A DNA stretch of 51,777 nucleotides from Gammaproteobacteria bacterium (GCA_018224385.1 JAGTVB010000058.1:1-51777), one strand, 5' to 3'; positions 34,580-51,777 are shown, counted from the stretch's first letter. Translations and numbers: made by a program. The notes: a model not told the origin generated them from the sequence alone.

Positions 34580-34984
34580 CTACCGCCCCTGCAGTTCTGT
34601 GAGCTTGCGGCGGTCCCGCTTAGTCGGTCGGCCTGTGCCCGGCGTGCGCTGCACTGCCAGCGGCCGGCGTTGCTGCGCCTGCTGGGCGCGATAAGCCCTA
34701 CTCTCCGGCGTTTCCTCATAGAGTAGCACGGCCTCTGATGCAGGCCGACGCTCTTTAGAGAGGCCCTGCACGGTGACCTCCCACAGCAATTCCCCTTTCC
34801 GAATGCTGATCCGATCCCCGGTTCGAACCAGCCTGGCAGGTTTCACCCGCTGGTTTGCCACCTGCACTTTTCCGCCCGCGATGGCCACAGCGGCAAGGCT
34901 TCGAGTCTTAAAGAAGCGTGCGGCCCATAGCCACTTATCGAGTCGTTGTGCTCCGACGGCAGTCGCATAAGCTTCTCGCATCAT
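34580..34984 (-). CDS. hslR: Ribosome-associated heat shock protein Hsp15 (S4 RNA-binding domain)
   Basis: RLDKWLWAARFFKTRSLA...GGKVQVNQRVKP pattern of HslR. Confidence 0.85.
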   Translation of the reverse strand: MMREAYATAVGAQRLDKWLWAARFFKTRSLAAVAIAGGKVQVANQRVKPARLVRTGDRISIRKGELLWEVTVQGLSKERRPASEAVLLYEETPESRAYRAQQAQQRRPLAVQRTPGTGRPTKRDRRKLTELQGR

Positions 34985-35086: not shown

Positions 35087-35524
35087 CTATCCGGCTAACC
35101 TTGCGATGGCTGCGTCGATGTGCTTTTGGCGCTCTTTCATGGTTGCGATTGCCGCTTGAGCCTTGTCCGCAATGGTCTCATCGGCCTTCAATTGACCGTA
35201 CGCCTGCACCACATCGATCTCATCACTCAGGCCCAGCGTGTCGCGTAGCGGGGTTCCGGTTAGCGAGCTGAGTTGACCACCCGCATCCCTCTGGTCTTGG
35301 TAGATGCGGTACAGGGCCTTTGATCGCTCTGCGCCAATCGACAGCAACACGGTAAACTTATTGTCGCTTACCGGCGCCTCGTTTTGCAGTTCCTCCCAAA
35401 TTTTAATCGCTGCACCCATGTTCTCGGTGAGTTGCTGCAGCAACGCAAGGCACTGCTTTCGCTCGTCGTCGCGCTGTGGCCCCCATTGCTTGACCACTTC
35501 GACTGTTTGCTCCAAAAGACTCAT
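35087..35524 (-). CDS. Hypothetical helical protein (145 aa)
   Basis: The ATG at 35524 follows GAGGGAG; the track ORF extends to 35635. No recognisable domain. Confidence 0.45.
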   Translation of the reverse strand: MSLLEQTVEVVKQWGPQRDDERKQCLALLQQLTENMGAAIKIWEELQNEAPVSDNKFTVLLSIGAERSKALYRIYQDQRDAGGQLSSLTGTPLRDTLGLSDEIDVVQAYGQLKADETIADKAQAAIATMKERQKHIDAAIARLAG

Positions 35525-36001
35525 CACGAACTCCCTCTGCAGAACCAGCCCATAATACCCGCCAAAGGTCGGAGTTACGGCGTTGGTTTCAATAAATGCG
35601 CTGTATTCTTGTTCAGTGAACCACACATGCACCACGGGCTACTGACCCTGCTTACCGCCAGGCAGCGCGCTCTGAGCCGCGCCGTTGGTCCAGCGTTCAA
35701 GGACTTTCCCGCGCGTCGCAATCGTCGATCATCACCCTCTCACCCATGCCGGCGGTATCGTCTTGTGCGCCTGCCGTCCTCCCGACTGACCCATTGCGCC
35801 CGGTGCAGGGCCGCATTGTTATTACCGATCGGTCGTTTGGGAGCGATTATTAATTGTCCGAGCTTGGTGGTCGACACGCGGGCAGGGGAAAAAAACCCGG
35901 CGGACGATCGACCGCTACCCTTGACTTGTGACTTGAACGAATGTTTCAAACGCTGGACCGGCGCCTTCGACGCTGCGCAGAGTGCCGACCCGATGGCGAT
36001 T

Positions 36002-36202
36002 TCACTTTCTTACCCACTCCTCGAAACTGGAGCTGTCGCGATTTTCACCCGCTTCGTAGCCCGCCTCATAGGCTTCCGTGATCCGCTGCTCTTCGCGTTT
36101 CGGATTCTGCAGGTAACCTCCTATCCAGCCTTGGATGTATTCCTGGTCCACGCCGCTTTTTTCCATCTTGTCGACGGCCTCGTAATAGGTCTTCATGTCC
36201 AT
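36002..36202 (-). CDS. Hypothetical small acidic protein (66 aa)
   Basis: The ATG at 36202 is preceded by GAGGTGG. It is divergent from the MoxR-like gene across an AT-rich 170-bp region. Sequence: MDMKTYYEAVDKMEKSGVDQEYIQGWIGGYL... Confidence 0.45.
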   Translation of the reverse strand: MDMKTYYEAVDKMEKSGVDQEYIQGWIGGYLQNPKREEQRITEAYEAGYEAGENRDSSSFEEWVRK

Positions 36203-36375
36203 TTCTGCCACCTCAAAAGACAGGTCCGCCCCACCGGTTTATAAGAGTTTGTTTATTATCCATACCCATTAGTCTATCAGCAAGTAATAATGTACCCTAT
36301 CACAAATACAGGGGCTGGGGCGGTGCGTGCGCGATGAGGTCAGGGTTGGGAGTAGTTTTGCCAAGCGAGTGAGTT

Positions 36376-37422
36376 ATGCGCCCATATCATCTGCGTACCG
36401 TATTGGATCAGGAGTTTTCCAGCACTGACGCGGGGCACCATACCCCAGTCATGATCTGGGGACCGCCGGGTGTGGGTAAATCCCAGGTCATCGCCCAGGT
36501 GGCGGCGCGTTACGGGGTACCCATCATCGATATACGCTTGTCGCAGCTCGAGCCGAGCGACCTGCGGGGCATTCCCTTTCGCGTCGGTGAGCACGTGGAC
36601 TGGGCGGTACCCTCGATGCTGCCTGACGCCAGACGCCATGGTCCAACCGGCCTGTTATTCTTGGACGAGATCACTTCGGCGCCGCCCACGGTTTCCGCCG
36701 CAGCCTATCAGCTGATCTTGGATCGGCGTCTTGGCGCCTATGCGATTCCCGGTCGATGGGCCATTTTTGCGGCCGGAAATCGCCAAGGTGACCGAGGGGT
36801 GACCTATACGATGCCGGCGCCGCTCGCCAATCGTTTCGCTCATTTTGAGTTTGAAGTCAATCTCGACGATTGGGTCGCCTGGGCCTATGCCAGCGGCATC
36901 GACGAGCGCATCATCGGCTTCTTGCGTTTTCGCCCGGAGCTGCTGTTCGAATTTGACCCGGCGCACAATCCGGTGGCTTTTCCGTCACCTCGCTCCTGGG
37001 AGTTTGCCCACCGGGCGCTGCAAAAATTTTCCGATCATGCTGAGGTGCTGCTCGGAACGTTGCAGGCTTGTGTAGGGCCGGCGGCCGGGATCGAACTCCA
37101 TGCCTTCATCAGCAATTTGGACCGCATGCCCGACCTGGATGCCGTCGTTCGCGGGGAGGATGTGCCGATTCCGGGGGAGATTGATCTGCAATACGCTATT
37201 GCGAGTGCCCTGGTGGGGCGTGCCATTCGCGCCAAGGACACCCCGGAGGCGCCGATCGTCCACGGTAACATCCTGAATTTCGCGAAACGCTTGAGGCCGC
37301 GCGAAATGGGCGTGATGCTGGTGTCCGACATGCACCAGGCAGTGGGACAGACGCTCTTCAGCCTGCCTGAATTCGGCCAGTGGGCAAACGCTGTTGCCGA
37401 CGTCATGCTGTACGCAGATTAG
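36376..37422 (+). CDS. MoxR-like AAA+ ATPase (AAA_5 type)
   Basis: Walker A GPPGVGKS, Walker B LLFLDEI, sensor-1 AAGN, and a single AAA+ module plus a helical C-terminal region. Confidence 0.85.
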   Translation: MRPYHLRTVLDQEFSSTDAGHHTPVMIWGPPGVGKSQVIAQVAARYGVPIIDIRLSQLEPSDLRGIPFRVGEHVDWAVPSMLPDARRHGPTGLLFLDEITSAPPTVSAAAYQLILDRRLGAYAIPGRWAIFAAGNRQGDRGVTYTMPAPLANRFAHFEFEVNLDDWVAWAYASGIDERIIGFLRFRPELLFEFDPAHNPVAFPSPRSWEFAHRALQKFSDHAEVLLGTLQACVGPAAGIELHAFISNLDRMPDLDAVVRGEDVPIPGEIDLQYAIASALVGRAIRAKDTPEAPIVHGNILNFAKRLRPREMGVMLVSDMHQAVGQTLFSLPEFGQWANAVADVMLYAD

Positions 37423-37498
37423 CCTCGTGAAAGCGATCTCAAGAATGTCCCGAGCGCCGTCGTTTTTATAACCGCTTCGCAACGGCGACTGATTTTCT

Positions 37499-38755
37499 AT
37501 GAGTGATGACCACGCCGACAACCTCGTAACCAAATTATCCGCGGCGCGTACCCGGCTGATTCTCGATAAACCCTTCCTGGGGGCGCTGGTGTTGCGTCTG
37601 CCAACCAAGGCGGCGGATCCGAAGTGGTGCCCTACGACTGCCACCGACGCCCGCTGCTTCTATTACAATCCACAATACATCGAGGCGCTCAGTCTCGCTC
37701 AGACCGAGTTCGTGCTGGCCCACGAAGCGCTTCACTGTGCCCTGTCGCACTTCGCGCGGCGCCAGCACCGCGTCAAATCCCGCTGGGACGTTGCCTGTGA
37801 TTATGCGATCAATCCGCTATTGATCAAGGAAGGCTTTGCGCAACCTCCAGGGACGCTCTGGGAGCAAAGTTTCGATGGCATGACGGCAGAGGAAATTTAT
37901 CCTTACATCGACGAGAACAATGCCGAGCAGCCGATGGACCGGCATATTTATGATGCGCAGGAGAGCAGCGGCAGCGGCGCCGCGCCGGACACCGCACACC
38001 CGCACGGACCACCATCGGCAGGCGGATCAGGTGATTCCGGCTCCGAGGGTGAACAGCCGCGGGCCGATGCGGCGGTCCATCCTGAGGCCGGGGGCGCAGC
38101 GCAGCCGCCGCCACTGAGCGAGGGCGAACGCGAGTCGTTGGCAATCCAGTGGCAGCAGCGGCTTGCAGCGGCCGCCCAGCAGGCGATGCAGGCCGGCAAG
38201 CTCGGAGGGGAGATGGCACGCCTGGTCGACCATCTCTTGCAGCCAAGACTCCCCTGGCGCATGCTGCTGGCGCATTACGTGCGCGCCGCAGGACGGGATG
38301 ACTTTAGCTACACCCGTCCGTCGCGCCGGGAAGGTGCCGCGATCCTCCCAAGCCTGAGAAGCGCAGAGCTTGACGTGGTCGTGGCCGTCGATACTAGCGG
38401 CTCCATCAGTGAGCAGGAGCTGACCGAGTTTCTTGGCGAGGTCGACGCTATCAAAGGCCAGATGCGCGCCCGCATCACCTTGCTGGCTTGCGACGCTGAG
38501 CTTGCCGAAGGCTCACCTTGGGTGTTCGAACCGTGGGAGGAATGCCACTTCAGCGACGCAATCCAGGGAGGCGGAGGCACGCGGTTTTCGCCGGTTTTCG
38601 ACTGGATCAACGAACGCGACCGCGCACCCGACCTGCTGCTCTACTTCACCGATGGAGCCGGAGAATTTCCCGCCAGAGCGCCGCCGTACCCGGTGCTCTG
38701 GCTGGTGAAGGGAAAGCGGCCGGTGCCCTGGGGACAGCGCGTTCAGCTCAACTGA
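37499..38755 (+). CDS. VWA-domain protein with N-terminal putative metallopeptidase domain (DUF2201-type partner of MoxR ATPases)
   Basis: HExxH (LAHEALHCALSH) in the N-terminal domain, then a low-complexity G/S/A/P linker. The C-terminal VWA-like domain has a MIDAS-like start DVVVAVDTSGSIS and LLLYFTDG. Confidence 0.8.
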   Translation: MSDDHADNLVTKLSAARTRLILDKPFLGALVLRLPTKAADPKWCPTTATDARCFYYNPQYIEALSLAQTEFVLAHEALHCALSHFARRQHRVKSRWDVACDYAINPLLIKEGFAQPPGTLWEQSFDGMTAEEIYPYIDENNAEQPMDRHIYDAQESSGSGAAPDTAHPHGPPSAGGSGDSGSEGEQPRADAAVHPEAGGAAQPPPLSEGERESLAIQWQQRLAAAAQQAMQAGKLGGEMARLVDHLLQPRLPWRMLLAHYVRAAGRDDFSYTRPSRREGAAILPSLRSAELDVVVAVDTSGSISEQELTEFLGEVDAIKGQMRARITLLACDAELAEGSPWVFEPWEECHFSDAIQGGGGTRFSPVFDWINERDRAPDLLLYFTDGAGEFPARAPPYPVLWLVKGKRPVPWGQRVQLN

Positions 38756-38908
38756 GCACTGGGGAAGAAATCGAAGCGCGCCCAGAGGGCGCGGCGCATG
38801 GCGTCCAGCGACGAGAGAGCGCAACTGATGGGCGCGAGCAGCGCACCATCCAACGCCGCTCTCGGGAGGCGCAGCAGGTTCATTCACGAGCTCTGACGGA
38901 AGGTGAGG

Positions 38909-40057
38909 ATGGAGCTGTCTCGAGAAGACGCCCTGCGACTCAATGTGCTGTTGGCTGGCGAGGTTCATGCGATCCGCATCGACGAGTCGGCTATGACCGT
39001 GTATGGCTTATGCGAGCGCGGTGAAGCCCAGATCAAGCTCAAGCCGAGCGGGCGCAACGATCACTACCTGCGGTTAGTGCGTGAAACCATCTCCGGCCAT
39101 GTGCTGGGATCCCCGGGCGGCTATCCGGTGTATCTCAAACGTTGGACGCGGATGGGGCAGGCGCGTGACGAAAGCCTGACGCAGCTCCTGAAACTGGGCG
39201 AGCCGGAGGCGGTCTCAGCCGTGGTGCATGCGCGGGGACTGACCGAGATATTGGCAAGGCACGCCTGGTGGGCCGAGCCCTCGGCGGAAAACGCGCGCAG
39301 CATGTTGCGCCGAACAGCGGTAGTCAACAGTACCCTGGGCCCGGTATTGGCGGAGTATTTGCTCGATTATCTGCCGTTCGAAACTGAGCCGTCCACGACG
39401 GTGGAGACGGTGCGGCTGGTTCTTCAACAACCGCCGCTTATCAGTCCAGAGGTACGTCACGGGATCTGGAACAAGGCAAAGCACAAGACCACTTACCAGG
39501 TGGGATTTCTACTGGCCTGCCCGGACGATCTCCCGCAACCTCGGGGGCCCCGACCCGGTGTGCAGCCGAGCGCGGCGCGGATAGAGCCTTTGCTGGCCGC
39601 GTCAAATCCTTTTGCCCAACAGCTGGTGCGGGTTTGGTCCGCCAGCGGGCAATCCTTTTTGTATGCCGCGGAGCAGGTGTTGCGTAAACCCGCCGACCAG
39701 GACATCGTATTGCTGCTGTTCCAAGCCATCGCAAGTTATTTCCAATCGGTTCGCATGGACGATGAGCCTGAAGCGGATATGGAGACGTTGATGCGGCAGG
39801 CGGCGCGCTTCTGTGTGGATGATGGCGACATCGGGACGAAGCAGCAGGCGGCGCTGCGGCAGGTTCTTCAGTGTTGCCCCGAGTGCCGGGCGGATCTCGA
39901 AGGGATGCTGGTCCTGGCCCGCCTTGGCTATCCGGCCGTACGCCCGGTGTTTTCGCGCACGACCGCCATTGGCAGCCTGATGCGGCGCAAGCTGGAATCC
40001 GTGACCTGCCATTTGTTTGCGTACCTGCGCCAGCTTCAGGGGCAGGGCGGGTCTTAA
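38909..40057 (+). CDS. dsrS: DsrS-like protein (accessory protein of the sulfur-oxidising dsr system)
   Basis: Recognised from memory of DsrS sequences: MELS.ED.LRLNVLLA...AIRIDES.M.V..L.ERGEA...SPGGYP.YLKRWTRMGQ...LGEPEAV. The size of about 42 kDa matches DsrS. The ATG at 38909 follows GGAAGGTGAGG. Needs HMM confirmation. Confidence 0.55.
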   Translation: MELSREDALRLNVLLAGEVHAIRIDESAMTVYGLCERGEAQIKLKPSGRNDHYLRLVRETISGHVLGSPGGYPVYLKRWTRMGQARDESLTQLLKLGEPEAVSAVVHARGLTEILARHAWWAEPSAENARSMLRRTAVVNSTLGPVLAEYLLDYLPFETEPSTTVETVRLVLQQPPLISPEVRHGIWNKAKHKTTYQVGFLLACPDDLPQPRGPRPGVQPSAARIEPLLAASNPFAQQLVRVWSASGQSFLYAAEQVLRKPADQDIVLLLFQAIASYFQSVRMDDEPEADMETLMRQAARFCVDDGDIGTKQQAALRQVLQCCPECRADLEGMLVLARLGYPAVRPVFSRTTAIGSLMRRKLESVTCHLFAYLRQLQGQGGS

Positions 40058-40074
40058 CCAGCTGGTGTTTGCAG

Positions 40075-41118
40075 ATGTCATCTACGGTCACTATCCAACC
40101 GAGCGGTCATGTCCTGACGGTAGCAACGACCGAGACCATCCTTGAGGCCGCGCTTCGGGCGGGCTTGGCCCTCGATTACGGCTGCACCAATGGCAGTTGC
40201 GGGAAGTGTAAGGCGCGGGTGACGGCGGGCGACGTTCGAGAGATCCATTTTCACGACTACGTCCTCAGTGCGGCGGAGCGCCAAGCAGGTTTTTGCCTTC
40301 TTTGCTGCGTGGCGCCGCAGGGCAACGGGGTAAGCATTTATGCCGAGCAGGCGCGCATCGGCGAGATTCCGATTCAGTCCATCACGGCGCGGGTACACAA
40401 GCTTGAATCATTCGGCGCCGGGTTAGCCGTGCTCAGTCTGCGAACGCCGCGTTCGCAAGTGCTGCGCTTTCTGCCGGGCCAGCAGCTGATCCTCAAACGT
40501 GAGGGGATCGGCGCTGCACGCGTGCCGATAGCCAGCTGCCCTTGCGATGGTATGCACCTGCGGTTTCACTTGCGCTATCGACCCGGAGATGCCTTTAGCG
40601 AGTGGGTCTTTCGTCACTCGAAGCGGGCTGATTCCGTGCACCTGGAGGGACCCTGGGGACGCTTCAGCCTGGATGAGGAATCGACGCGGCCCATTATTTT
40701 TGTTGCCAATGACGTAGGATTTGGAGCGGCGAGCAGCCTCATCGAGCATGCCCTCAACATCGATCTGCCGCAGTCGATGCATCTCTATTGGTATGCAGCG
40801 CGCCCGGAAGAGCACTATCTCGACAACCAATGCCGCGCTTGGGCCGATGCCTTGGATGCGTTTTCCTATACGCCACTGGTGGCCGCCGCCGACGCTGCGC
40901 CAGCGGGCGGTGGGGCGACCGGCGCCAATGTGCTCAGCGAGGCACCGCGCGTATCAGGGGAGGTGGGGCGCGCGATCGTCGAAAATTATCCCGATCTGAG
41001 CACGTTCGACTGTTACCTCATTGGCCCAAGGGCTTTCCGGGCGGCGGCGAAGCGACCGCTGTTGGCGCATGGGCTGCCCCAGCAGCGCCTGTTCGAGCAG
41101 GACATTACCCCGGATTAG
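40075..41118 (+). CDS. Plant-type [2Fe-2S] ferredoxin fused to an FNR-like reductase module
   Basis: C-x4-C-x2-C...C (GCTNGSCGKCKARV...LLCC) followed by a flavin-reductase-like barrel (RFLPGQQL) and a nucleotide-binding-like half with an atypical motif (IIFVANDVGFGAA instead of GGTG). The ATG at 40075 is 18 nt after the dsrS-like stop. The track ORF start at 39871 overlaps dsrS and is rejected. Confidence 0.75.
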   Translation: MSSTVTIQPSGHVLTVATTETILEAALRAGLALDYGCTNGSCGKCKARVTAGDVREIHFHDYVLSAAERQAGFCLLCCVAPQGNGVSIYAEQARIGEIPIQSITARVHKLESFGAGLAVLSLRTPRSQVLRFLPGQQLILKREGIGAARVPIASCPCDGMHLRFHLRYRPGDAFSEWVFRHSKRADSVHLEGPWGRFSLDEESTRPIIFVANDVGFGAASSLIEHALNIDLPQSMHLYWYAARPEEHYLDNQCRAWADALDAFSYTPLVAAADAAPAGGGATGANVLSEAPRVSGEVGRAIVENYPDLSTFDCYLIGPRAFRAAAKRPLLAHGLPQQRLFEQDITPD

Positions 41119-41175
41119 TTCTGGGGGGGATCCCTGCGCCTCGGCGAGCGGCCCACTTGAGAATTGGAAAGGGCG

Positions 41176-41859
41176 CTATTGCATGGAAACAAACAAGTTC
41201 GCCATGCTTTTTTTCAGTTGTTTGAACGTTTCCGGTGCCTGGATGTCCATGATTTGATCGATCACCCAGCGGTTGGTCTGATCCTCTCCCATGATTTTCA
41301 GTACCTGGGATCCGAAGTAGCGCAGAAAATCGTAACCCGGTTCGCCATTACGAAACGTTTGCGTGGCATAACCTGCCAAGCGTTCGTTCAGCAGCGCAAT
41401 GAACGCCCGGCGGTAGTTACCCGGTCCGGCAATGTCGACCAAGTTATCCTGCATCTGGTTGGCGAGTTGCTGAGCAAAGGCGTTGATGAAACGTTCCCGG
41501 TCTTCGTCGTCGAGCGGCCCGTACACGAGGCGATCGGCTGAGTGCACCAGGAAGGCCACGAATTCGCTGATGACACCGACGCGCTCTTTATCGGTCAGGT
41601 AATTAAAGCCCTCACCGTGGAGTTTTTTCGCCCCCTCTAGAGACAGGCGCCAGGTGATGAATGCGAGCGCATTGGCGTTGTCCTCAAGGGATTTTTGCGA
41701 AGGCTTGTTGCGCTGCGAGTGATGCCAAGTACTCTTGATTCGGATAGCCACCCTAGCATTTTCCCCCTGAGAAATTCCTGGTGGGGCGGTGGCCTTTCGG
41801 TGGTAGGCCGCCCACGCCCTAACGGTTTGGCCGACGTCGGCGTAATCAAGCTCGTGCAC
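41176..41859 (-). CDS. Hypothetical protein (227 aa), no recognised domain
   Basis: Clean ORF with typical codon usage. It is divergent from 41956-43002. Confidence 0.55.
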   Translation of the reverse strand: MHELDYADVGQTVRAWAAYHRKATAPPGISQGENARVAIRIKSTWHHSQRNKPSQKSLEDNANALAFITWRLSLEGAKKLHGEGFNYLTDKERVGVISEFVAFLVHSADRLVYGPLDDEDRERFINAFAQQLANQMQDNLVDIAGPGNYRRAFIALLNERLAGYATQTFRNGEPGYDFLRYFGSQVLKIMGEDQTNRWVIDQIMDIQAPETFKQLKKSMANLFVSMQ

Positions 41860-41875
41860 GCCATCTTTGCCACTG

Positions 41876-41904
41876 TTGACAATACTTTAGTATTTTCCTA
41901 AGTT
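41876..41904 (+). promoter_or_regulatory. Sigma70-like promoter with an embedded palindromic operator
   Basis: TTGACA (41876-41881), a 17-nt spacer, then TAAGTT (41899-41904). The perfect palindrome AATACT-TT-AGTATT (41881-41894) sits inside the spacer. It lies 52 nt upstream of the ATG at 41956. Confidence 0.6.
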
Positions 41905-41955
41905 TCTAAATCTGATGCAACCGGGTCGAGTGGATGATTTACGGGTTTGCCGCCA

Positions 41956-43002
41956 ATGGTTGAGAATCTAGAGCATTTACGGGCCGCGGTGCAGCGCAAC
42001 TGCGATGTGTCGGATGCCTTGTTTGCAGGCAATTACACGCTGTGCACTTATCTGCTGAAGATGCGTGAATACTTCCGATGGCATCAGGGTTACGCCCTCA
42101 CCGACGCCCTCTCAGGTGACGCGGTGGGGGCGTGGGTGGAGCATCGAGAACAACTATGGGAATCCTTGGCTTGTGAAGATTACGGCTGTCTTCCCGTGGA
42201 CTCCAATTGTTACGATCCCTTCGACAACGAATCCATCAATCGCGCTTTGATTCCCCAGGGATTCGTGTACAGCGGCGGCTATGGCGGGGGCGGCAAGCCG
42301 CATTTCTTCCTCGGCCGGCTGCTGTTCGTCGAGCCGCGCGACGACCTGATGGTTTATGTTTCCTCGTGTGAGTACGCACGTGATCTGACGGCACCGCCTG
42401 CCATGATACAAGGAAAGCAGGTTTTCGTGCGCCGTGAATCGCTGCGCCGTTCTATCTGGGAGCTCATCGAAGAGTGGCAGTGGACGCGACACGAGGGGCC
42501 GATGACCCGTGCCCTCAAGGACTACGCCTTCGATCGTGATCCGCAAGCGGCGCTGGAGCGCATCACCGAAGATCAAGTCACCACGGTGGTGCTCCACGAA
42601 ATGGGTGAGGCCCTGGCGGCGCAGCGGCTCGGCGAGGCCTGGGAGCAGATGTTGGTGACCGTGGCGGGCTCTCCCGCAGAGCTGGTGGCGCGCGCGGTGC
42701 GCGACCACATGGCGGATTGTCTGATGACTTTGCCAAGGTTGCTGGACTCGGGAGGGGCGCCGCCGGTGCATTTCTATTTTGCGGGCTTGCGGGGCATGCG
42801 CCGGCAATTGTTTCCTGAAGCGCTCGCCGCCTATGAGCAGTGGGTGAGTGAGGGCACGCTTTCTCCTCTACAGGCGGTATTGCAGTGGGGCAGCGAGCAC
42901 TTCAGTGCGTTATCGGCAGCCATGCTTGAGCTTCACCGGGAGGACGCGCCGCGGCTGGCGCGCGCCATTGAGGATTTGGTTGGCTTGCCCACGCGCCGAT
43001 GA
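41956..43002 (+). CDS. Conserved hypothetical protein (348 aa)
   Basis: Long clean ORF; ATG at 41956, with the track ORF opening at TTG 41947. It has a Gly-rich loop (YSGGYGGGGKPHFFLGRL). No catalytic motif recognised. Confidence 0.55.
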   Translation: MVENLEHLRAAVQRNCDVSDALFAGNYTLCTYLLKMREYFRWHQGYALTDALSGDAVGAWVEHREQLWESLACEDYGCLPVDSNCYDPFDNESINRALIPQGFVYSGGYGGGGKPHFFLGRLLFVEPRDDLMVYVSSCEYARDLTAPPAMIQGKQVFVRRESLRRSIWELIEEWQWTRHEGPMTRALKDYAFDRDPQAALERITEDQVTTVVLHEMGEALAAQRLGEAWEQMLVTVAGSPAELVARAVRDHMADCLMTLPRLLDSGGAPPVHFYFAGLRGMRRQLFPEALAAYEQWVSEGTLSPLQAVLQWGSEHFSALSAAMLELHREDAPRLARAIEDLVGLPTRR

Positions 43003-43078
43003 GGCGCCATCGTCATCGTTTCGGCACTTTTGTTCGCCGGTGTGACCACCCTGCTGCCGGCCTCACGGGGCGCCGTGA

Positions 43079-43210
43079 ATACATCCGTATAGGCTTTGAG
43101 TCCGGCATCGCTGCCGGACGCACCCGGGTAGCCAGCAGCGGGGCTGCCTGCACATCTCGGCACGCTTCCCCTGGTTACTTGGCGACGCTGACAAAACGAT
43201 GACGATGGCC
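43079..43210 (+). repeat. Dispersed ~133-nt intergenic repeat, copy 2
   Basis: See 1-132. The hairpin GTCCGGCA-TCGC-TGCCGGAC lies at 43100-43119. The 3' block is GACGCTGACAAAACGATGACGATGGCC. Confidence 0.7.
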
Positions 43211-43267
43211 GAATAATCGCTCAAAATGACGCCTTGTTACCGAGCCAAATAAGAGCCGCTATAAGTC

Positions 43268-43879
43268 ATGAAGTCACTACGGCACCCGCACAGTCCACAC
43301 CCCGTGGCTATCGACGAGTTGCGACCTTTGAGTTTTATTTTCGAGGTGCGAGACGGGCTCCCGCGGGAGGTCTGTCGAGAGATGATCCGCCGCTTTGAGA
43401 CGTGTACGGAGCAGCAATACCAAGGGCTGGTCGGTCAACGCCAATGGAAAGAGCGCTCTATCAAGAAGTCCACCGATCTCACCATGAGCGGCAAGGCAGA
43501 CTGGAAGGACATCGATGCCATGCTGTTTGCTTCTATGGCGCGCGCCATCGGAGCGTTTCGTCATCGCTATCCGTATTTCCAGGGGCGCTTCAAGGACATG
43601 GGCTATGTCATGCAGCGCACCCTCCCTGGAGAGTATTATCACTGGCATATTGACGGCGGCAGCCACGAGTTCAGTCAGCGGCAACTGGTGGCAATCTGGT
43701 ACTTGAACGATGTCGAAAGTCCCGGGGGGGAGACGGAATTTCTTTACCAAGATGTAAAAGTTAAGCCGAGCGAAGGTAAGTTGCTGCTGTTCCCGCCCTT
43801 CTGGACGCACCAGCATCGCGGCGTGACCCTGGAAAAGGGAGTGAAATACATCGCCACGACGTGGGTGGTGTTTGCCTGA
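43268..43879 (+). CDS. 2OG-Fe(II) oxygenase (prolyl-4-hydroxylase-like, ~200-aa type)
   Basis: HxD (HWHIDGG) and a distal His (FWTHQHRG) on a double-stranded beta-helix pattern. Confidence 0.75.
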   Translation: MKSLRHPHSPHPVAIDELRPLSFIFEVRDGLPREVCREMIRRFETCTEQQYQGLVGQRQWKERSIKKSTDLTMSGKADWKDIDAMLFASMARAIGAFRHRYPYFQGRFKDMGYVMQRTLPGEYYHWHIDGGSHEFSQRQLVAIWYLNDVESPGGETEFLYQDVKVKPSEGKLLLFPPFWTHQHRGVTLEKGVKYIATTWVVFA

Positions 43880-43901
43880 TCGATGCCTGGGGGAGGTTGT
43901 T

Positions 43902-44573
43902 TTGCTTCTGGAAATCGCCAGCGTCGTGGATGCCCAGCAATTGGCCGTTATCCGTCAGCTACTTGCCAATGGGCGCTTTGTGGATGGGAGGCAATCGGCG
44001 GGCATCACCGCAGGGCGGGTAAAGCGCAACCGCGAGCTGGATCCCCAAACGGCCGAGCTAAAACGGCTTAACAGCATGGTGCTGGGCAGCCTCTATCGCC
44101 ATCCAACCTTTCGTAGCGCTGCCTTGCCATACCGCATGTCGGGAGCTTTTTTTGCTCGCTACAGCGAGGGCATGGCGTACGGCGATCACGTTGATGACCC
44201 GGTGATGGGAGAACGGGAGCGCTACCGCTCCGACATTGCCATCACAGTCTTTCTGAATGATGTGGCGGATTACGAAGGCGGCGAATTGGTCATCCGCACC
44301 GCGTTTGGTGACAAGGCGGTGAAGCTTGCCGCTGGCGATGCGGTCATTTATCCCGCTTCCAGCCTGCATCATGTGGCCGAGGTGACCCGCGGTGAGCGCC
44401 TCGTGGCGGTTGCCTGGAGCCAGAGTCTCGTGCGGGACGCTGCCAAGCGGGAGCTACTCTATGAGCTGGACACGGTGCGGGAAACATTGCGCCGGGCGAT
44501 GCCCGCGGCGTTGGTGACGGCCAAAGTGGACCACTGCTATGTCAACCTGGTCCGCCTCTGGGCGGAAGTCTAA
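43902..44573 (+). CDS. Fe(II)-dependent oxygenase, PiuC/YbiX (PKHD-type hydroxylase) family
   Basis: The N-terminus aligns with YbiX-type proteins (..IASVVDAQQLAVIRQLL..GRFVDGR.SAG......KRN.ELD). HxD is YGDHVDD, and the distal His/Arg is SSLHHVAEVTRGERL. The TTG at 43902 lies 6 nt after GGGAGG. Confidence 0.8.
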   Translation: MLLEIASVVDAQQLAVIRQLLANGRFVDGRQSAGITAGRVKRNRELDPQTAELKRLNSMVLGSLYRHPTFRSAALPYRMSGAFFARYSEGMAYGDHVDDPVMGERERYRSDIAITVFLNDVADYEGGELVIRTAFGDKAVKLAAGDAVIYPASSLHHVAEVTRGERLVAVAWSQSLVRDAAKRELLYELDTVRETLRRAMPAALVTAKVDHCYVNLVRLWAEV

Positions 44574-46213: not shown

Positions 46214-46552
46214 CTAATAACCGCCCTTTCGGCGGCTTTCCGGGAGTCCGGCCACGCGGCCCGCTTGTTTGCTCGGGTTGCCTGGAAACAGATCGAAGAG
46301 GGTCTTGGTATCAACCTTTTCCCCCCACAGCTGACCCATCGCCTTGACCATCGTGCGGGTGTTTGGCTGATTTTCGTGATTGTTGAAATATTCATCGCGC
46401 AGATAATTAACAACGTCCCAGTGGCGGTGCTGGAGCTCGAGGCCGTCTTGTTGTGCAAGAGCTTCGGCTACCGCTTCATTCCATTCATCCAGGTTGACGA
46501 GGAAACCGGTTTCGGTGAGTTCCAGTTCCTTCCCGTCCACAACCAGCTTCAT
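46214..46552 (-). CDS. DsrC/TusE-family protein lacking both C-terminal cysteines
   Basis: Family pattern: ...L.ETGFLVNLDEWNE.VAE.LA...G.EL...HW.V.NYLR.EYF......P..R..VK..... The C-terminal arm ends ...AGLPESRRKGGY, with no Cys where DsrC has Cys-x10-Cys. Confidence 0.8.
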   Translation of the reverse strand: MKLVVDGKELELTETGFLVNLDEWNEAVAEALAQQDGLELQHRHWDVVNYLRDEYFNNHENQPNTRTMVKAMGQLWGEKVDTKTLFDLFPGNPSKQAGRVAGLPESRRKGGY

Positions 46553-46602
46553 GAGTGACCTCCTCGACGTCGACAGTTATCATTTTATCAGACCCTGGGA
46601 AC

Positions 46603-47292
46603 CTAATGTTGGGCTTTGCTCCCCACCGGCTCAATCCCCTTGTGGGGGATGAACAGCCCACAGCCGATGGTGCGTCCCGGGCCCAGCCCTTGTTGCTGCA
46701 ATCGTACCGATTCTTCCGGATTGAGGCCCGCCACCATCACACTGCGGGTGAAGATGTTCTCTGTGGGGGTGGTGATGACATGGGCGATCCCACAGAGCAG
46801 CTTGCGCACGCGTACACCCATACCCGCAAGCTGGTCCGCAGCATATTCCACGAAGTGCAGTTCGTCCTGGTTCTCGGCGGTGATGACATAGCGGGCAAAC
46901 AGCGTCTCAATCGGGTTCAAGGACCGTACGCTCGGTAGTTGCACCTGCAGTGCGTGGCCGGCTATGTCGAGCGTTGCGCCGCTCAGCCGAGCGGCATCAT
47001 CGATGCGGTGTGCCGGGACGCGCAACGTCAACCGAGCGCGCCGGGAGAGGTGCAGGAGCGCTTGTCCGGAATCCTCGGGGCGCATCCAGCCATTGCCGGA
47101 GGCCGCGCCGTGGATAACATGAATGCCGGCACGCTCCTCGTCGCTTAACCAGGGGAGTTGTGTCAGGATCGCCGCGGACAGGGCGTGGGCGTGATCCAAC
47201 GGCAACATTCGACAGTCGATGCGAAACGACACATCGACAACGTCATGGGCAACCTCGGGTGCCACGGGCGGCGCGTCTTCTTGCCAGAACAT
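46603..47292 (-). CDS. Cas6/Cmx6-like RAMP protein, orphan (no CRISPR or other cas genes in the window)
   Basis: Matches the remembered Cmx6 pattern: LPLDHAHALSAAIL..LPWL......GIH.I.G...GNG, LTLRVPA.RI, LDIAGHAL, VMVAGL..EESVRLQQQGLGPGRTIGCGLFIPHK (C-terminal glycine-rich loop). The ATG at 47292 lies 2 nt after the upstream stop (TAA-CG-ATG). Confidence 0.65.
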   Translation of the reverse strand: MFWQEDAPPVAPEVAHDVVDVSFRIDCRMLPLDHAHALSAAILTQLPWLSDEERAGIHVIHGAASGNGWMRPEDSGQALLHLSRRARLTLRVPAHRIDDAARLSGATLDIAGHALQVQLPSVRSLNPIETLFARYVITAENQDELHFVEYAADQLAGMGVRVRKLLCGIAHVITTPTENIFTRSVMVAGLNPEESVRLQQQGLGPGRTIGCGLFIPHKGIEPVGSKAQH

Positions 47293-47294
47293 CG

Positions 47295-49836: not shown

Positions 49837-51096
49837 ATGAAGAAGCATGATACCCCGATGCTCGATCAGCTCCAGGATGGCCCGTGGCCTAGCTTTATTT
49901 CAGGGATAAAGAAGCTGCGGGATGATCACCCGAGCGAGCGCATCAACGAGATGACCAATGATCTCCTAGGCCAGCTCGAGCATTCCTACGAGACCCGTAA
50001 GGGGTATTGGAAAGGTGGCACGGTCAGCGTCTATGGCTATGGCGGTGGCATCATTCCCCGCTTCTCCGAAGTCGGTCAAATGTTCCCGAAATCGCGAGAG
50101 TTTCATACGCTGCGCGTGCAGCCGCCCGCGGGCAACTTCTATACCACCGACATCCTGCGCAAGCTGGCAGACAGCTGGGAAAAGTGGGGGTCGGGCTTAG
50201 TCACTTTTCATGGCCAGACCGGCAACATCATGTTTATCGGGACGACCACCGAGAACACGCAACACTTCTTCGACGAGATCAACGATTACGGGTGGGATCT
50301 CGGCGGTGCCGGTCCGTGCGTGCGCACATCGATGTCGTGTGTGGGCTCGGCCCGGTGCGAGCAATCGTGCGCCAACGAACACAAGATTCACCGCACGCTT
50401 GTCAACAATTTTACCGATGATGTGCATCGGCCGGCGCTGCCTTACAAGTTCAAGTTCAAAGTCTCGGGCTGCCCGAACGACTGCGTGAATTCCATTGAGA
50501 GGGCGGACTTCGCGGTTATCGGCACGTGGCGGGATGACATGAAAGTAGACCAAGAGGCTTTCAAGGAATATCTCGTCAAGAAGGGGCGCAAGTATATCAT
50601 CGACAACGTGATCACCCGTTGCCCGACCAATGCGCTTTCGCTCAATGACGATGACACCATCGCGGTAGACAATCGCAATTGTGTGCGCTGCATGCACTGC
50701 CTCAACGTCATGCCTAAGGCCCTGTCCCCAGGCGATGACAAGGGTGTTAGCATCCTCATCGGTGGCAAGCGTACGCTCAAGATCGGTGATTTGTTCGGTA
50801 CGGTGGTGGTGCCGTTCATGAAGCTCGAATCGGAAGAGGATTACGAGCAGCTGGTGGAGATGGCTGAGAATACGATTGACTTCTTCTCGGAAAACGCGCT
50901 CGAGCACGAGCGAATCGGTGAAACCATCGAGCGTATTGGGCTGGTTAACTTCCTAGAGGGCATTGGCCTTGAGGTCGATCCCCACATGGTGGCGCATCCG
51001 CGCGAGAGTTCCTATGTCCGTATGGATACTTGGGACGAGGAAGCCGAAAAGTGGTTTCAGCGCAAGGCGGAGGAGAAGCAAGCCGCCGGGGCATGA
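49837..51096 (+). CDS. dsrA: Dissimilatory sulfite reductase alpha subunit (reverse/oxidative type)
   Basis: AAGGAG RBS. Siroheme/Fe-S motifs CVRTSMSCVGSARC, a ferredoxin-like insert CPNDC...CPTNAL...CVRCMHC, and full-length similarity to DsrA of sulfur oxidisers. Confidence 0.9.
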   Translation: MKKHDTPMLDQLQDGPWPSFISGIKKLRDDHPSERINEMTNDLLGQLEHSYETRKGYWKGGTVSVYGYGGGIIPRFSEVGQMFPKSREFHTLRVQPPAGNFYTTDILRKLADSWEKWGSGLVTFHGQTGNIMFIGTTTENTQHFFDEINDYGWDLGGAGPCVRTSMSCVGSARCEQSCANEHKIHRTLVNNFTDDVHRPALPYKFKFKVSGCPNDCVNSIERADFAVIGTWRDDMKVDQEAFKEYLVKKGRKYIIDNVITRCPTNALSLNDDDTIAVDNRNCVRCMHCLNVMPKALSPGDDKGVSILIGGKRTLKIGDLFGTVVVPFMKLESEEDYEQLVEMAENTIDFFSENALEHERIGETIERIGLVNFLEGIGLEVDPHMVAHPRESSYVRMDTWDEEAEKWFQRKAEEKQAAGA

Positions 51097-51208
51097 TGGC
51101 CGTACGGGGTTAGTTTCCTGAAGACACGAAGGGGGGCATCGCCGCGCGCCGGAGAGACCCCTCAGGAATAAGTACAGCGATTTCAGGCGAATTTTGGAGG
51201 TTAGGAGT

Positions 51209-51777
51209 ATGGCCCAGATGCAGCAGCGGACGCCGATTGAAAGCGGCTGTCCGGATGGTTTTCAGTATATGCATCCCGTCATGTTGAAAAACTTCGGGCA
51301 ATGGAAGTACCACGAGGATCCGCGCCCCGGGGTGTTGCGCCACGTGGCGCACAGCGGCGAAGAAATTTGGACCGTGCGGGCGGGAACACAGCGCATCCTC
51401 GACGTGTTTACGCTGCGTAAACTTTGCGAGATTGGAGACAAGTACGCCGACGGGCACGTGCGGTTTACCATCCGCAGCAACATGGAATTCATGGTGGCAG
51501 ACGCCACTAAGGTGGAGCCGTTAGTCGCGGCTTTGGAGCAAGCAGGGTTTGTCGTCGGTGGGACGCGAAACTCCGTTGCCATGATCTCCCACACTCAGGG
51601 ATGGTTGCACTGCGATATTCCGGGAACCGACGCCTCCGGCGTGGTGAAGGCGATGATGGACGAGCTCCACGAAGAGTTTAAGACGTGGAACATGCCCAAT
51701 CGCGTGCACATGACCACTTCCTGTTGTCAAATCAATTGCGGCGGGCAAGGTGACATCGCCATCAACATACAGCACAC
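51209..51777 (+). CDS. dsrB: Dissimilatory sulfite reductase beta subunit, 5' partial (runs off the window)
   Basis: The ATG at 51209 follows GGAGG/AGGAG. The translation is MAQMQQRTPIESGCPDGFQYMHPVMLKNFGQWKYHE...GWLHCDIPGTDASG...TSCCQINCGGQGD, typical of DsrB. It is absent from the ORF track because there is no stop codon before the window end. Confidence 0.85.
   Translation, partial: MAQMQQRTPIESGCPDGFQYMHPVMLKNFGQWKYHEDPRPGVLRHVAHSGEEIWTVRAGTQRILDVFTLRKLCEIGDKYADGHVRFTIRSNMEFMVADATKVEPLVAALEQAGFVVGGTRNSVAMISHTQGWLHCDIPGTDASGVVKAMMDELHEEFKTWNMPNRVHMTTSCCQINCGGQGDIAINIQH

What the first reader, a model, noticed from the sequence alone, without database searches (positions are those of the whole stretch)
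36376..41118. MoxR-type AAA+ ATPase and VWA/metallopeptidase pair in one operon with a DsrS-like protein and a ferredoxin-reductase fusion
Four same-strand genes with gaps of 76, 153 and 17 nt. MoxR/VWA pairs act as chaperone-like remodelling or metal-insertion machines, but the DUF2201-type pair has no defined substrate. Here it sits immediately upstream of a homologue of DsrS, whose biochemical role in sulfur oxidisers is unknown, and of a [2Fe-2S]-FNR fusion with an atypical nucleotide-binding motif. This suggests a maturation or remodelling system for a redox or dsr-related client. I am not aware of this link having been described.
Basis: partly seen in the sequence, partly recalled or inferred. 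Interest (0 to 1): 0.7.

Follow-up and report, generated by a model that had tools for sequence, protein, structure and literature searches.

The report
Conserved MoxR–VWA–DsrS sulfur-oxidation gene trio
A chaperone-type ATPase and its adaptor protein sit next to dsrS, a sulfur-oxidation gene of unknown biochemical role, in dozens of sulfur-oxidising bacteria, which points to an undescribed three-protein machine and gives DsrS a testable function.

Summary
Four same-strand genes lie at the stated coordinates with gaps of 76, 153 and 17 nt. They encode a MoxR-class AAA+ ATPase, a DUF2201 zincin-plus-VWA protein, a DsrS orthologue and a [2Fe-2S]/FNR-like fusion.

MoxR–VWA–DsrS is a conserved gene trio.
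- It occurs in 22 of 74 informative DsrS-seeded genome loci.
- It occurs in 45 of 72 informative VWA-seeded metagenome loci.
- 55 complete trios have at least 10 different gene families on each flank.
- Carriers include Sulfurifustis variabilis and a betaproteobacterial Sulfuricella MAG.
- After MoxR itself, DsrS is the commonest neighbour of this VWA gene.

The fourth gene is not part of the module. It occurs in only 4 of 81 loci, and the two more distant homologues I looked up lie in unrelated contexts.

The trio is optional from DsrS's side, because most DsrS genes lack it as a neighbour. The window is the accessory region upstream of dsrAB.

The mechanism is inferred, not shown. I propose an ATP-driven remodelling or maturation machine for the Dsr apparatus, with the alpha-solenoid DsrS as adaptor or client. 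I found no paper linking DsrS with MoxR. I rate it a new variant of a known kind, interest about 0.6.

The parts
36002..36211 (-). Alvin_2107-family small 'globule sulfur oxidation' protein (69 aa), divergently transcribed from MoxR
   Evidence: NCBIfam NF049856 at 108 bits, cutoff 60. Its cluster is present in 52 of 81 DsrS loci.
36376..37422 (+). MoxR-class AAA+ ATPase (348 aa)
   Evidence: Pfam AAA_5 and AAA are above cutoff. The closest solved relatives are midasin AAA domains and NorQ. Walker A GPPGVGKS, Walker B LLFLDE, AAGN, PLANRF and PSPRS are conserved, and 43% of positions are >=98% identical in 64 orthologues.
37499..38755 (+). DUF2201 protein: N-terminal zincin-like HExxH domain, disordered acidic/Gly linker, C-terminal VWA domain with MIDAS
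   Evidence: Pfam DUF2201_N and DUF2201. H75-E76-x-x-H79 and H84 are invariant, as are D298, S300 and S302 of the MIDAS motif D-T-S-G-S, whose T299 is nearly invariant. In the AF2 model the C-terminal domain matches VWA/I-domains (Foldseek prob 1.0) and the N-terminal domain matches selecase.
38909..40057 (+). DsrS orthologue (382 aa)
   Evidence: More than 4,500 homologues, named DsrS by NCBI. It is 50% identical over its full length to the gene that follows dsrL-O-P-N-R in Thiohalocapsa halophila. AF2 gives pLDDT 89 for a small N-terminal beta domain plus an alpha-solenoid, with no PDB relative.
40075..41118 (+). [2Fe-2S] ferredoxin fused to a degenerate FNR-like module with a conserved ASCPC motif; lineage-specific passenger, not a core member
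   Evidence: Fer2 at 54.7 bits. All NCBIfam reductase equivalogs are far below cutoff. RxYS and GGTG are absent and ASCPC is present in 116 of 120 homologues. It is next to DsrS in only 4 of 81 loci.
41176..41859 (-). Conserved 227-aa protein of no known family, always paired divergently with the DUF6866 gene
   Evidence: No Pfam, NCBIfam or PADLOC hit. It lies within the 10-kb flanks fetched around DsrS in 49 of 80 genome loci.
41947..43002 (+). DUF6866 / Sfum_1244-family protein
   Evidence: Pfam DUF6866_N and DUF6866_C, and NCBIfam NF045620 at 438 bits. Linked to DsrS in 49 of 80 loci.
43268..44573 (+). Two 2OG-Fe(II) oxygenases (43268-43879 and 43872-44573; the second is PKHD/YbiX-like)
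   Evidence: Pfam 2OG-FeII_Oxy_3 and NCBIfam PRK05467. Conserved with the DUF6866 block.
49837..51775 (+). dsrA (49837-51096) and the start of dsrB (51194-51775, runs off the window)
   Evidence: TIGR02064 dsrA at 630 bits. TIGR02066 dsrB at 259 bits over the partial ORF.

Best explanation
MoxR, the DUF2201 zincin-VWA protein and DsrS form a conserved three-gene module of Dsr-type sulfur-oxidising Gamma- and Betaproteobacteria. In this window it lies in the accessory region upstream of dsrAB.

Proposed mechanism (inferred):
- The MoxR hexamer hydrolyses ATP.
- It transmits mechanical work through the VWA/MIDAS domain of the DUF2201 protein, as in NorQ/NorD, CoxD/CoxE, CbbQ/CbbO and the chelatases.
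- DsrS has no invariant Cys or His and so does not look like a metal or cofactor binder. It acts as the specificity adaptor, or as the client itself, that connects the motor to a component of the Dsr apparatus.
- The output is post-translational maturation, assembly or repair of Dsr proteins. The siroamide-[4Fe-4S] enzyme DsrAB is the most plausible target.
- The HExxH domain of the VWA protein adds a processing or quality-control step.

What is shown: gene identities, intact catalytic and MIDAS motifs, and conserved linkage across many contexts. What is inferred: physical interaction, the client and the biochemical output. The ferredoxin/FNR-like gene is a lineage-specific neighbour and not part of the module.
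For: Linkage:
- MoxR-VWA lies directly upstream of DsrS in 22 of 74 informative GTDB species loci.
- DsrS lies directly downstream of VWA in 45 of 72 informative metagenome loci that were seeded on VWA, not on DsrS.
- 55 complete trios are flanked by at least 10 shared gene families on each side, plus unique genes.
- The trio also occurs in Sulfurifustis variabilis AP014936 and a Sulfuricella MAG, in wholly different flanks.
- Half of the VWA-to-DsrS gaps are 31 nt or less.
- After MoxR, DsrS is the commonest neighbour of this VWA gene: 42 loci against 18 for the next family.

Machinery intact:
- MoxR Walker A and B, sensor and Arg-finger motifs are conserved, and 43% of positions are >=98% identical.
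- The HExxH and MIDAS motifs of the VWA protein are conserved. Its VWA and selecase-like folds appear in the model.

DsrS as adaptor:
- The AF2 model is confident (pLDDT 89) and is an alpha-solenoid. No Cys is invariant or nearly invariant, and no His is invariant (H107 is nearly invariant).

Sulfur and cofactor context:
- dsrA and dsrB are in the window, and an Alvin_2107-family gene is divergent from MoxR.
- In other loci DsrS is followed by a glutaredoxin-like gene and a siroheme synthase (cysG)-like gene, identities that I assigned by eye from the sequences.
- In Chromatiaceae DsrS follows dsrN (siroheme amidase family) and dsrR (IscA-like).
- All named VWA homologues at >=62% identity come from sulfur-oxidiser lineages.

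Precedent: MoxR-VWA pairs act on specific client complexes, for example NorQD inserting FeB into cNOR (PMC9976466, PMC13036017) and the review in PMC7159879. From my own knowledge, not retrievable here: Grimm, Dobler and Dahl 2010 (Microbiology 156:764) reported that an A. vinosum dsrS deletion slows oxidation of stored sulfur and suggested post-transcriptional control of Dsr proteins.
Against: - The trio is optional. About 70% of informative DsrS loci lack MoxR-VWA next door. The purple-sulfur-type operons (dsrN-dsrR-dsrS) have none adjacent.
- Thiohalobacter thiocyanaticus keeps the pair unlinked from DsrS, next to an HDOD gene.
- In 27 VWA-seeded loci the pair is followed by other genes: an M48-peptidase/TPR gene (13 loci, 6-7 of them with SoxY and SoxZ further on) or HDOD (6 loci).
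- Much of the linkage sits in one large DsrS clade, so the number of independent events is smaller than the number of loci.
- There is no expression, interaction or phenotype data for MoxR or VWA.
- Promoter and terminator scans around the genes are no better than shuffles. The 153-nt gap before dsrS would allow a separate promoter, as reported for A. vinosum dsrS (PMC3368242).
Confidence: 0.5

Rival explanations
1. The module is an ATP-gated protease switch. The MoxR motor unfolds or presents a substrate, which may be DsrS itself or a protein bound by DsrS. The invariant HExxH zincin domain of the DUF2201 protein then cleaves it. The module would regulate Dsr protein levels by proteolysis and would not mature a cofactor-containing enzyme.
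For: H75, E76, H79 and H84 of the HEALHC..SH motif are invariant in the 20 aligned VWA homologues. The N-domain resembles the minimal metallopeptidase selecase by sequence (E 0.05) and by fold (26% identity, prob 0.92). A post-transcriptional effect of DsrS on Dsr protein levels (my recollection of Grimm et al. 2010) would fit regulated turnover.
Against: No peptidase activity has been shown for any DUF2201 protein; only 4 papers mention the family, none functionally. The N-domain model is of only moderate confidence (mean pLDDT 70.6). Characterised MoxR-VWA pairs mostly remodel clients and do not degrade them (PMC7159879).
Confidence: 0.2
2. MoxR-VWA serves a different client within sulfur-oxidation islands, such as Sox proteins, sulfur-globule proteins, or the Alvin_2107 and DUF6866 block. 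DsrS would be only a frequent neighbour because both genes reside in the same island, with no direct functional coupling.
For: In 27 of 72 VWA-seeded loci DsrS is absent. In 13 of these an M48/TPR peptidase gene follows, with SoxY and SoxZ beyond it in 6-7, and in 6 an HDOD gene follows. The pair often keeps its place next to Alvin_2107, the 227-aa gene and DUF6866 even without DsrS, as in L102, L114, L147 and L153. From DsrS's side, the Sel1 gene, the glutaredoxin-like gene, Alvin_2107 and the cysG-like gene are more frequent neighbours than MoxR-VWA.
Against: The trio stays intact outside the island, in at least 10 different flanking contexts where Alvin_2107, Sel1 and DUF6866 are absent (for example L083, L084, L086, L088, L111, L162 and L164). 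DsrS is more than twice as frequent next to VWA as any other non-MoxR family. Many gaps are 0-30 nt.
Confidence: 0.15
3. MoxR-VWA and DsrS would mature or remodel the adjacent [2Fe-2S]/FNR-like fusion, which would be the redox client.
For: The gap between dsrS and the fusion gene is 17 nt on the same strand. The fusion lies directly downstream of DsrS in two further loci (L001, L002) and 2.6 kb away in a third (L030). The fusion is unusual because it lacks the FAD and NAD motifs and carries ASCPC instead.
Against: It is present in only 4 of 81 DsrS loci and in none of the 80 VWA-seeded loci. The family has at least 1,957 homologues. In the two homologue contexts I looked up, Sulfuricella denitrificans and a gammaproteobacterial MAG, no DsrS-sized or MoxR/VWA-type gene is nearby. 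In most trios the position after DsrS is held by a different 182-aa gene.
Confidence: 0.05
4. The trio is a MoxR-vWA 'ternary' conflict or defence system of the kind described by Kaur, Burroughs, Iyer and Aravind (2020). DsrS would play the role of the all-alpha third component (VMAP-like).
For: The architecture is similar: MoxR, a vWA protein and an all-alpha-helical third protein. Metallopeptidase domains occasionally occur on the vWA component of those systems (PMC7159879). There is a weak bpMoxR Pfam hit (E 0.0035).
Against: The bpMoxR score of 16.9 is below the cutoff of 27. VWA and DsrS have no PADLOC hits, and MoxR has only marginal P-loop matches. MoxR is 70-80% identical across classes with 43% near-invariant positions, the opposite of a diversifying conflict system. 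The distribution is restricted to sulfur oxidisers. DsrS sits inside the dsr operon in Chromatiaceae. No effector-domain variability was seen.
Confidence: 0.03

Closest known systems
NorQ/NorD (MoxR AAA+ plus VWA protein that inserts FeB into cytochrome c-dependent NO reductase)
   Same: A MoxR-class ATPase is encoded next to a VWA/MIDAS partner and next to genes of the respiratory enzyme it serves. NorQ is the closest solved bacterial relative of the window ATPase (E 1.5e-7).
   Different: The VWA partner here carries an N-terminal HExxH zincin domain (DUF2201_N) that NorD lacks. A third dedicated protein, DsrS, travels with the pair. The client is unknown. The ATPase has an extra C-terminal region of about 150 aa.
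CoxD/CoxE, CbbQ/CbbO, RavA/ViaA and the BchI/BchD or CobS/CobT chelatases
   Same: They follow the same two-component logic: a MoxR-clade AAA+ motor plus a VWA adaptor acts on a specific metalloenzyme or tetrapyrrole (PMC7159879). A link to a siroheme enzyme would parallel the chelatases.
   Different: The window proteins matched none of the NCBIfam or Pfam models for these families. A different Pfam family, DUF2201, describes the VWA partner.
MoxR-vWA ternary systems (VMAP, iSTAND, FtsH and beta-propeller types; eLife 2020, PMC7159879)
   Same: Three-gene core of MoxR, vWA and a third specificity component, which is often all-alpha-helical.
   Different: Those are diversifying conflict systems of multicellular prokaryotes with variable effectors. 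This trio is highly conserved, single-architecture, confined to sulfur oxidisers and embedded in dsr gene neighbourhoods. bpMoxR is below cutoff and there is no PADLOC hit.
Canonical DsrS of Allochromatium vinosum (Alvin_1265), last gene of dsrABEFHCMKLJOPNRS
   Same: Same protein family. The window protein is 50% identical over its full length to the Thiohalocapsa gene in the same operon position, and NCBI gives the same name.
   Different: Here dsrS is detached from the dsr operon. It lies about 10 kb upstream of dsrA on the same strand and is preceded by MoxR-VWA in place of dsrN-dsrR.

Membership tests
MoxR-class AAA+ ATPase (AAA_5 / dynein-midasin-MoxR clade) | Pfam AAA_5 or AAA match above the gathering score | tested here: met
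   AAA_5 at 33.5 bits (cutoff 22) and AAA at 33.1 bits (cutoff 21.2). The best PDB relatives are midasin and NorQ.
MoxR-class AAA+ ATPase (AAA_5 / dynein-midasin-MoxR clade) | Intact Walker A, Walker B, sensor 1, Arg finger and sensor 2 | tested here: met
   GPPGVGKS, LLFLDE, AAGN, PLANRF and PSPRS are all conserved in 64 orthologues. The motif assignment is by eye.
MoxR-class AAA+ ATPase (AAA_5 / dynein-midasin-MoxR clade) | Encoded next to a VWA-domain partner | tested here: met
   The VWA gene lies 76 nt downstream. MoxR was found beside the VWA gene in 68 of 80 VWA-seeded loci.
MoxR-class AAA+ ATPase (AAA_5 / dynein-midasin-MoxR clade) | Hexameric ATPase activity | not testable with these tools
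   Needs purified protein.
DUF2201 (PF13203 + PF09967) zincin-VWA proteins | Both Pfam domains above the gathering score | tested here: met
   DUF2201_N at 156.1 bits (cutoff 23.2) and DUF2201 at 79.4 bits (cutoff 26.4).
DUF2201 (PF13203 + PF09967) zincin-VWA proteins | HExxH metal site and MIDAS DxSxS motif | tested here: met
   H75, E76, H79, H84, D298, S300 and S302 are invariant in 20 homologues. Foldseek matches VWA domains (prob 1.0) and selecase (prob 0.92).
DUF2201 (PF13203 + PF09967) zincin-VWA proteins | Peptidase activity | not testable with these tools
   It has never been shown for the family, as far as the 4 papers that mention DUF2201 indicate.
DsrS | Full-length homology to the gene that follows dsrN-dsrR at the end of the dsr operon of Chromatiaceae | tested here: met
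   50% identity over 99% of its length to L048 10001-11128 of Thiohalocapsa halophila. That gene is preceded by dsrL-, dsrP-, dsrN- and dsrR-type genes.
DsrS | Match to a curated DsrS profile | tested here: inconclusive
   No Pfam or NCBIfam hit. The operon-encoded Thiohalocapsa DsrS also gives none, so these libraries appear to hold no DsrS model. NCBI names homologues 'sulfur reduction protein DsrS'.
DsrS | Genome encodes oxidative-type DsrAB | tested here: met
   dsrA at 49837-51096 (630 bits) and the start of dsrB at 51194. The oxidative type is inferred from the neighbours, not from a tree.
DsrS | Role in oxidation of stored sulfur | not testable with these tools
   Needs genetics.
Ferredoxin-NAD(P)+ reductase-type electron-transfer component (BenC/MmoC/AntC class) | Plant-type [2Fe-2S] domain with four Cys ligands | tested here: met
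   Fer2 at 54.7 bits. C-x4-C-x2-C and a distal Cys are present.
Ferredoxin-NAD(P)+ reductase-type electron-transfer component (BenC/MmoC/AntC class) | RxYS flavin-binding motif and GGxGxxP nucleotide-binding motif | tested here: not met
   These align to R-V-P-I-A-S-C-P-C and A-N-D-V-G-F-G. RxYS is absent from all 120 homologues and GGTG from 117. There is no Pfam FAD_binding_6 or NAD_binding_1 hit.
Ferredoxin-NAD(P)+ reductase-type electron-transfer component (BenC/MmoC/AntC class) | Score above the curated cutoff of any NCBIfam reductase equivalog | tested here: not met
   The best is BenC at 114 bits against a cutoff of 430.
MoxR-vWA ternary conflict systems (Kaur et al. 2020) | bpMoxR-type ATPase with a VMAP, iSTAND, FtsH or beta-propeller third component and variable effectors | tested here: not met
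   bpMoxR at 16.9 bits is below the cutoff of 27. DsrS has no family hit. Architecture is uniform and conservation high.

The most novel reading that the evidence does not exclude
MoxR-VWA(DUF2201)-DsrS is the missing maturation or repair machine of reverse dissimilatory sulfite reductase. DsrS would dock onto apo- or damaged DsrAB (or DsrAB-DsrL). The AAA+/VWA motor would open it so that the siroamide-[4Fe-4S] cofactor can be inserted or exchanged. This would be a chelatase- or NorQD-like step for a tetrapyrrole-containing sulfur enzyme. It would give DsrS its first biochemical role and explain its recurrent neighbours: cysG, glutaredoxin, dsrN and dsrR.
Probability: 0.15. Interest if true: 0.8.

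Novelty: new variant of a known kind. Interest (0 to 1): 0.6.

Why it matters
DsrS has been known for about two decades as part of the dsr cluster, but no biochemical role has been assigned to it. DUF2201/MoxR pairs have no known client. A conserved physical linkage of the three genes across several gammaproteobacterial lineages (including Acidiferrobacterales) and a betaproteobacterium gives both problems a concrete, testable hypothesis. It points to cultured organisms that carry the trio, such as Sulfurifustis variabilis, where it can be tested. If the module matures or controls the Dsr machinery, it would be a new accessory step in a globally important sulfur-oxidation pathway. It would also be a new client class for MoxR-VWA chaperones.

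Tried and rejected
- HMM confirmation of DsrS: Pfam and NCBIfam give nothing for the window protein. They also give nothing for an operon-encoded DsrS, so the test is uninformative, not negative.
- Fold assignment of DsrS: a profile search against PDB sequences found nothing below E 0.4. Foldseek against the PDB found nothing below E 0.098 or above TM 0.3, only generic ARM/HEAT/PUF solenoids.
- Defence-system reading: VWA and DsrS have no PADLOC hits, and MoxR has only weak P-loop matches.
- Regulatory RNA in the 153-nt gap or elsewhere in 35500-42000: no Rfam match at E <= 0.1.
- Promoter and terminator scan of 35900-42000: counts equal those of shuffles, so there is no operon-boundary evidence either way.
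- The Fdx/FNR fusion as a conserved fourth member: rejected.
- Literature: no paper contains DsrS with MoxR, or dsrS with dsrAB and ATPase. The key DsrS and DsrR papers (Grimm et al. 2010) are not held, so what I say about the dsrS mutant rests on my memory.
- The 35384-36244(+) ORF upstream of MoxR has no family. It overlaps the conserved Alvin_2107 gene on the other strand, so I treat it as spurious.

Full report
**1. The observation**

All are on the + strand, with gaps of 76, 153 and 17 nt.

The ATG at 38909 is the right start for the third gene. It follows GGAAGGTGAGG, and the product begins MELS..ED.LRLNVLL like its homologues. The start at 40075 fits the N-termini of the homologues of the fourth gene.

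**2. Gene identities**

- Gene 1 matches Pfam AAA_5 and AAA above their cutoffs. Its closest solved relatives are midasin AAA modules and NorQ. Its Walker A and B, sensor and arginine-finger motifs are intact and conserved. In 64 orthologues, 43% of positions are >=98% identical.
- Gene 2 matches DUF2201_N and DUF2201 strongly. Twenty homologues share invariant H75, E76, H79 and H84 of the HEALHC..SH motif and invariant D298, S300 and S302 of the MIDAS motif DTSGS, separated by a variable acidic/Gly linker. In an AF2 model of moderate confidence, the C-terminal domain matches VWA/I-domains and the N-terminal domain matches the minimal zincin selecase.
- Gene 3 has no Pfam or NCBIfam hit, but this is uninformative. 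The gene that follows dsrL-O-P-N-R in Thiohalocapsa halophila DSM 6210 is 50% identical to the window protein over its full length, and it also hits nothing. The window protein has more than 4,500 homologues, which NCBI names 'sulfur reduction protein DsrS'. I therefore accept it as a DsrS orthologue.
- Gene 4 has a normal plant-type [2Fe-2S] domain, but its FNR-like half is degenerate. RxYS aligns to R-V-P-I-A-S-C-P-C and GGTGxxP to A-N-D-V-G-F-G. All reductase equivalogs score far below cutoff. This is a family trait: 116 of the 120 closest homologues carry an A/S-S/N-C-P-C/S motif, none has RxYS and 117 lack GGTG.

**3. Where the window is**

The 69-aa gene divergent from MoxR (36002-36211, minus strand) belongs to the NCBIfam 'Alvin_2107 family globule sulfur oxidation protein'. 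The finding therefore lies in the accessory region upstream of dsrAB of a gammaproteobacterial sulfur oxidiser.

**4. Is the linkage conserved?**

Forward test. I fetched 80 genome loci (GTDB species representatives) around DsrS homologues. I clustered their ORFs with those of the window.
- MoxR-VWA lies immediately upstream of DsrS in 22 of 74 loci that have enough upstream sequence.
- Half of the VWA-to-DsrS gaps are 31 nt or less.
- MoxR is 72-78% identical to the window protein in loci where DsrS is only 46-53% identical.

Reverse test. I fetched 80 metagenome loci seeded on the VWA protein, independent of DsrS.
- DsrS lies directly downstream in 45 of 72 loci with room for it.
- After MoxR, DsrS is by far the commonest neighbour of this VWA gene: 42 loci against 18 for the next family.

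Pooling all sets gives 55 complete trios. The genes immediately outside them belong to at least 10 shared families on each side, plus unique genes.

The trio also occurs in Sulfurifustis variabilis AP014936 (Acidiferrobacterales) and in a Sulfuricella MAG (Betaproteobacteria). None of the flanking genes there are shared with the window. This is the signature of a gene cluster kept together by selection.

**5. Limits of the linkage**

- Most DsrS genes do not have the pair next door. The commonest arrangement runs as follows: the 227-aa gene, a divergent Alvin_2107 gene, a Sel1-repeat gene, DsrS, a 182-aa gene, a glutaredoxin-like gene and a cysG-like gene (I read the last two identities from the sequences by eye). 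MoxR-VWA is an optional insert between the Sel1 gene and DsrS.
- Chromatiaceae-type loci have dsrN-dsrR-dsrS with no adjacent pair.
- Thiohalobacter thiocyanaticus has both DsrS and the pair, but unlinked.
- In VWA loci without DsrS, the downstream genes are an M48/TPR peptidase (13 loci, with SoxY and SoxZ beyond it in 6-7) or HDOD (6 loci), the latter often with a GGDEF gene further on.
- On a rough neighbour-joining tree, most linked DsrS genes form one large clade with a few outliers: the window lineage, L002/L061 and an Acidiferrobacteraceae sequence. The number of independent events is therefore smaller than the number of loci.

**6. The fourth gene**

The Fdx/FNR-like fusion accompanies DsrS in only 4 of 81 loci and in none of the VWA-seeded loci. 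Its family is large, with at least 1,957 hits. In the two more distant homologue contexts I looked up, Sulfuricella denitrificans skB26 and a gammaproteobacterial MAG, it sits among unrelated genes. In most trios a different 182-aa gene, often overlapping the DsrS stop codon, holds that position. That gene is absent from the window. The fusion is a lineage-specific passenger.

**7. What DsrS looks like**

AF2 gives a confident model (pLDDT 89, pTM 0.85). A small N-terminal three-stranded beta unit is followed by about 20 helices forming a solenoid. Nothing in the PDB resembles it beyond generic ARM/HEAT/PUF repeats. No Cys is invariant or nearly invariant, and no His is invariant (H107 is nearly invariant), among 87 homologues. 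This argues for a binding or scaffold protein and against an enzyme or cofactor carrier.

**8. Mechanism (inferred)**

Characterised MoxR-VWA pairs use ATP-driven conformational work, passed through the VWA/MIDAS adaptor, to remodel a specific client. Examples are FeB insertion by NorQD, Cu/Mo cluster maturation by CoxDE, Rubisco repair by CbbQO, and the chelatases (PMC7159879; PMC9976466 and PMC13036017).

By analogy, I propose that MoxR and the DUF2201 protein form such a motor and that DsrS is its specificity adaptor or client.

The recurrent neighbours of DsrS point to the siroamide-[4Fe-4S] enzyme DsrAB as the most plausible ultimate target. These neighbours are cysG, glutaredoxin, and in purple sulfur bacteria dsrN (siroheme amidase family) and the IscA-like dsrR.

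The invariant HExxH domain leaves open a proteolytic processing or regulated-turnover variant, which I list as the main rival.

From memory, because the paper is not held: Grimm, Dobler and Dahl 2010 found that a dsrS deletion slows oxidation of stored sulfur, and they suggested post-transcriptional control. Both variants would fit this. PMC3368242 confirms only that the function of DsrS is unresolved and that dsrS has an additional promoter of its own.

**9. Alternatives**

- A conflict or defence 'ternary system' reading is unlikely. bpMoxR is below cutoff, VWA and DsrS have no PADLOC hits, conservation is extreme and the architecture is uniform.
- Simple co-residence in a sulfur island does not explain why the trio persists in at least 10 foreign flanks.
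- No Rfam element lies between the genes, and no promoter or terminator signal stands above shuffles.

**10. Novelty and score**

No paper in the searchable library holds DsrS together with MoxR, or dsrS with dsrAB and ATPase. DUF2201 is mentioned in only four papers, none of which looks functional from its title or abstract; I did not open them.

The thing itself is a MoxR-VWA chaperone-type system, which is a known kind. Its particular features are a zincin-fused VWA partner, a dedicated third protein (DsrS) and a sulfur-oxidation context. I class it as a new variant of a known kind.

I score interest at about 0.6. The linkage is solid, and it makes the long-open question of DsrS function directly testable.

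Noticed in passing
window 41176-44573; also L004-L079 (most loci): A block of four genes lies within the 10-kb flanks fetched around DsrS in 49 of 80 genome loci: a 227-aa protein of no family (minus strand), a DUF6866/Sfum_1244 protein and two 2OG-Fe(II) oxygenases. In other genomes the block is upstream and inverted relative to the window, so the linkage survives rearrangement. No paper mentions Sfum_1244 or DUF6866. Its function is unknown.
   Followed up: partly
window 46214-49318 (minus strand): A conserved set of genes sits next to dsrA in about 20 loci. It comprises a DsrC/TusE-like protein with no cysteine in its C-terminal tail (46214-46552), a Cas6/Cmx6-family protein (46603-47427, PF09559 at 226 bits), a 79-aa protein and a TauD-like dioxygenase (48383-49318). 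A Cas6-fold protein in a dsr neighbourhood is odd; I did not look for a CRISPR array.
   Followed up: partly
window 40075-41118; P0241-P0360: The Fdx/FNR-like fusion belongs to a large subfamily (at least 1,957 hits) found in sulfur-oxidising Beta- and Gammaproteobacteria among others. The subfamily has lost the RxYS and GGTG motifs and carries a conserved A-S-C-P-C motif at the former flavin site. Many members have an extra ~150-aa extension (about 480-500 aa in total). In Sulfuricella denitrificans the gene lies next to a DsrC-like gene.
   Followed up: partly
L010, L023, L028, L033, L036, L050, L059 and others (downstream of DsrS); absent from the window: A 182-aa protein of no known family follows DsrS, with gaps of -11 to +6 nt in most trio loci (31 of 80 DsrS loci; 26 of 55 trios). 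It may be a fourth module member. In several trio loci it is followed by a glutaredoxin-like gene and EgtB/EgtD-like genes, identities I read by eye from the sequences.
   Followed up: partly
L102, L129, L147, L153, L155, L159 and others (VWA-seeded metagenome loci): In 13 of the loci where this MoxR-VWA pair is not followed by DsrS, it is followed by an M48-peptidase/TPR (BepA-like) gene. In 6-7 of these SoxY and SoxZ come next. This is another sulfur-oxidation context for the same pair.
   Followed up: no
window 44570-45955 (minus strand): A CUAEP/CCAEP-tail radical SAM (seleno)protein (NCBIfam NF040546, 613 bits) lies between the oxygenase pair and the DsrC-like gene. It is shared with only one other locus (L001).
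   Followed up: no
window 8525-10446 and 15419-19171 (minus strand): There is a LuxI/LuxR-type quorum-sensing pair (autoinducer synthase 8525-9151, LuxR 9697-10446). A 1,250-aa ORF has only a weak Pyr_redox_2 match (15419-19171). Neither is related to the finding.
   Followed up: no
window 34580-34984 (minus strand): An Hsp15 (HslR) homologue lies near MoxR in the window and recurs upstream of the MoxR-VWA pair in 11 VWA-seeded loci and in Thiohalobacter thiocyanaticus, there together with HtpG and DsbA. This may be a heat-shock or proteostasis neighbourhood.
   Followed up: no
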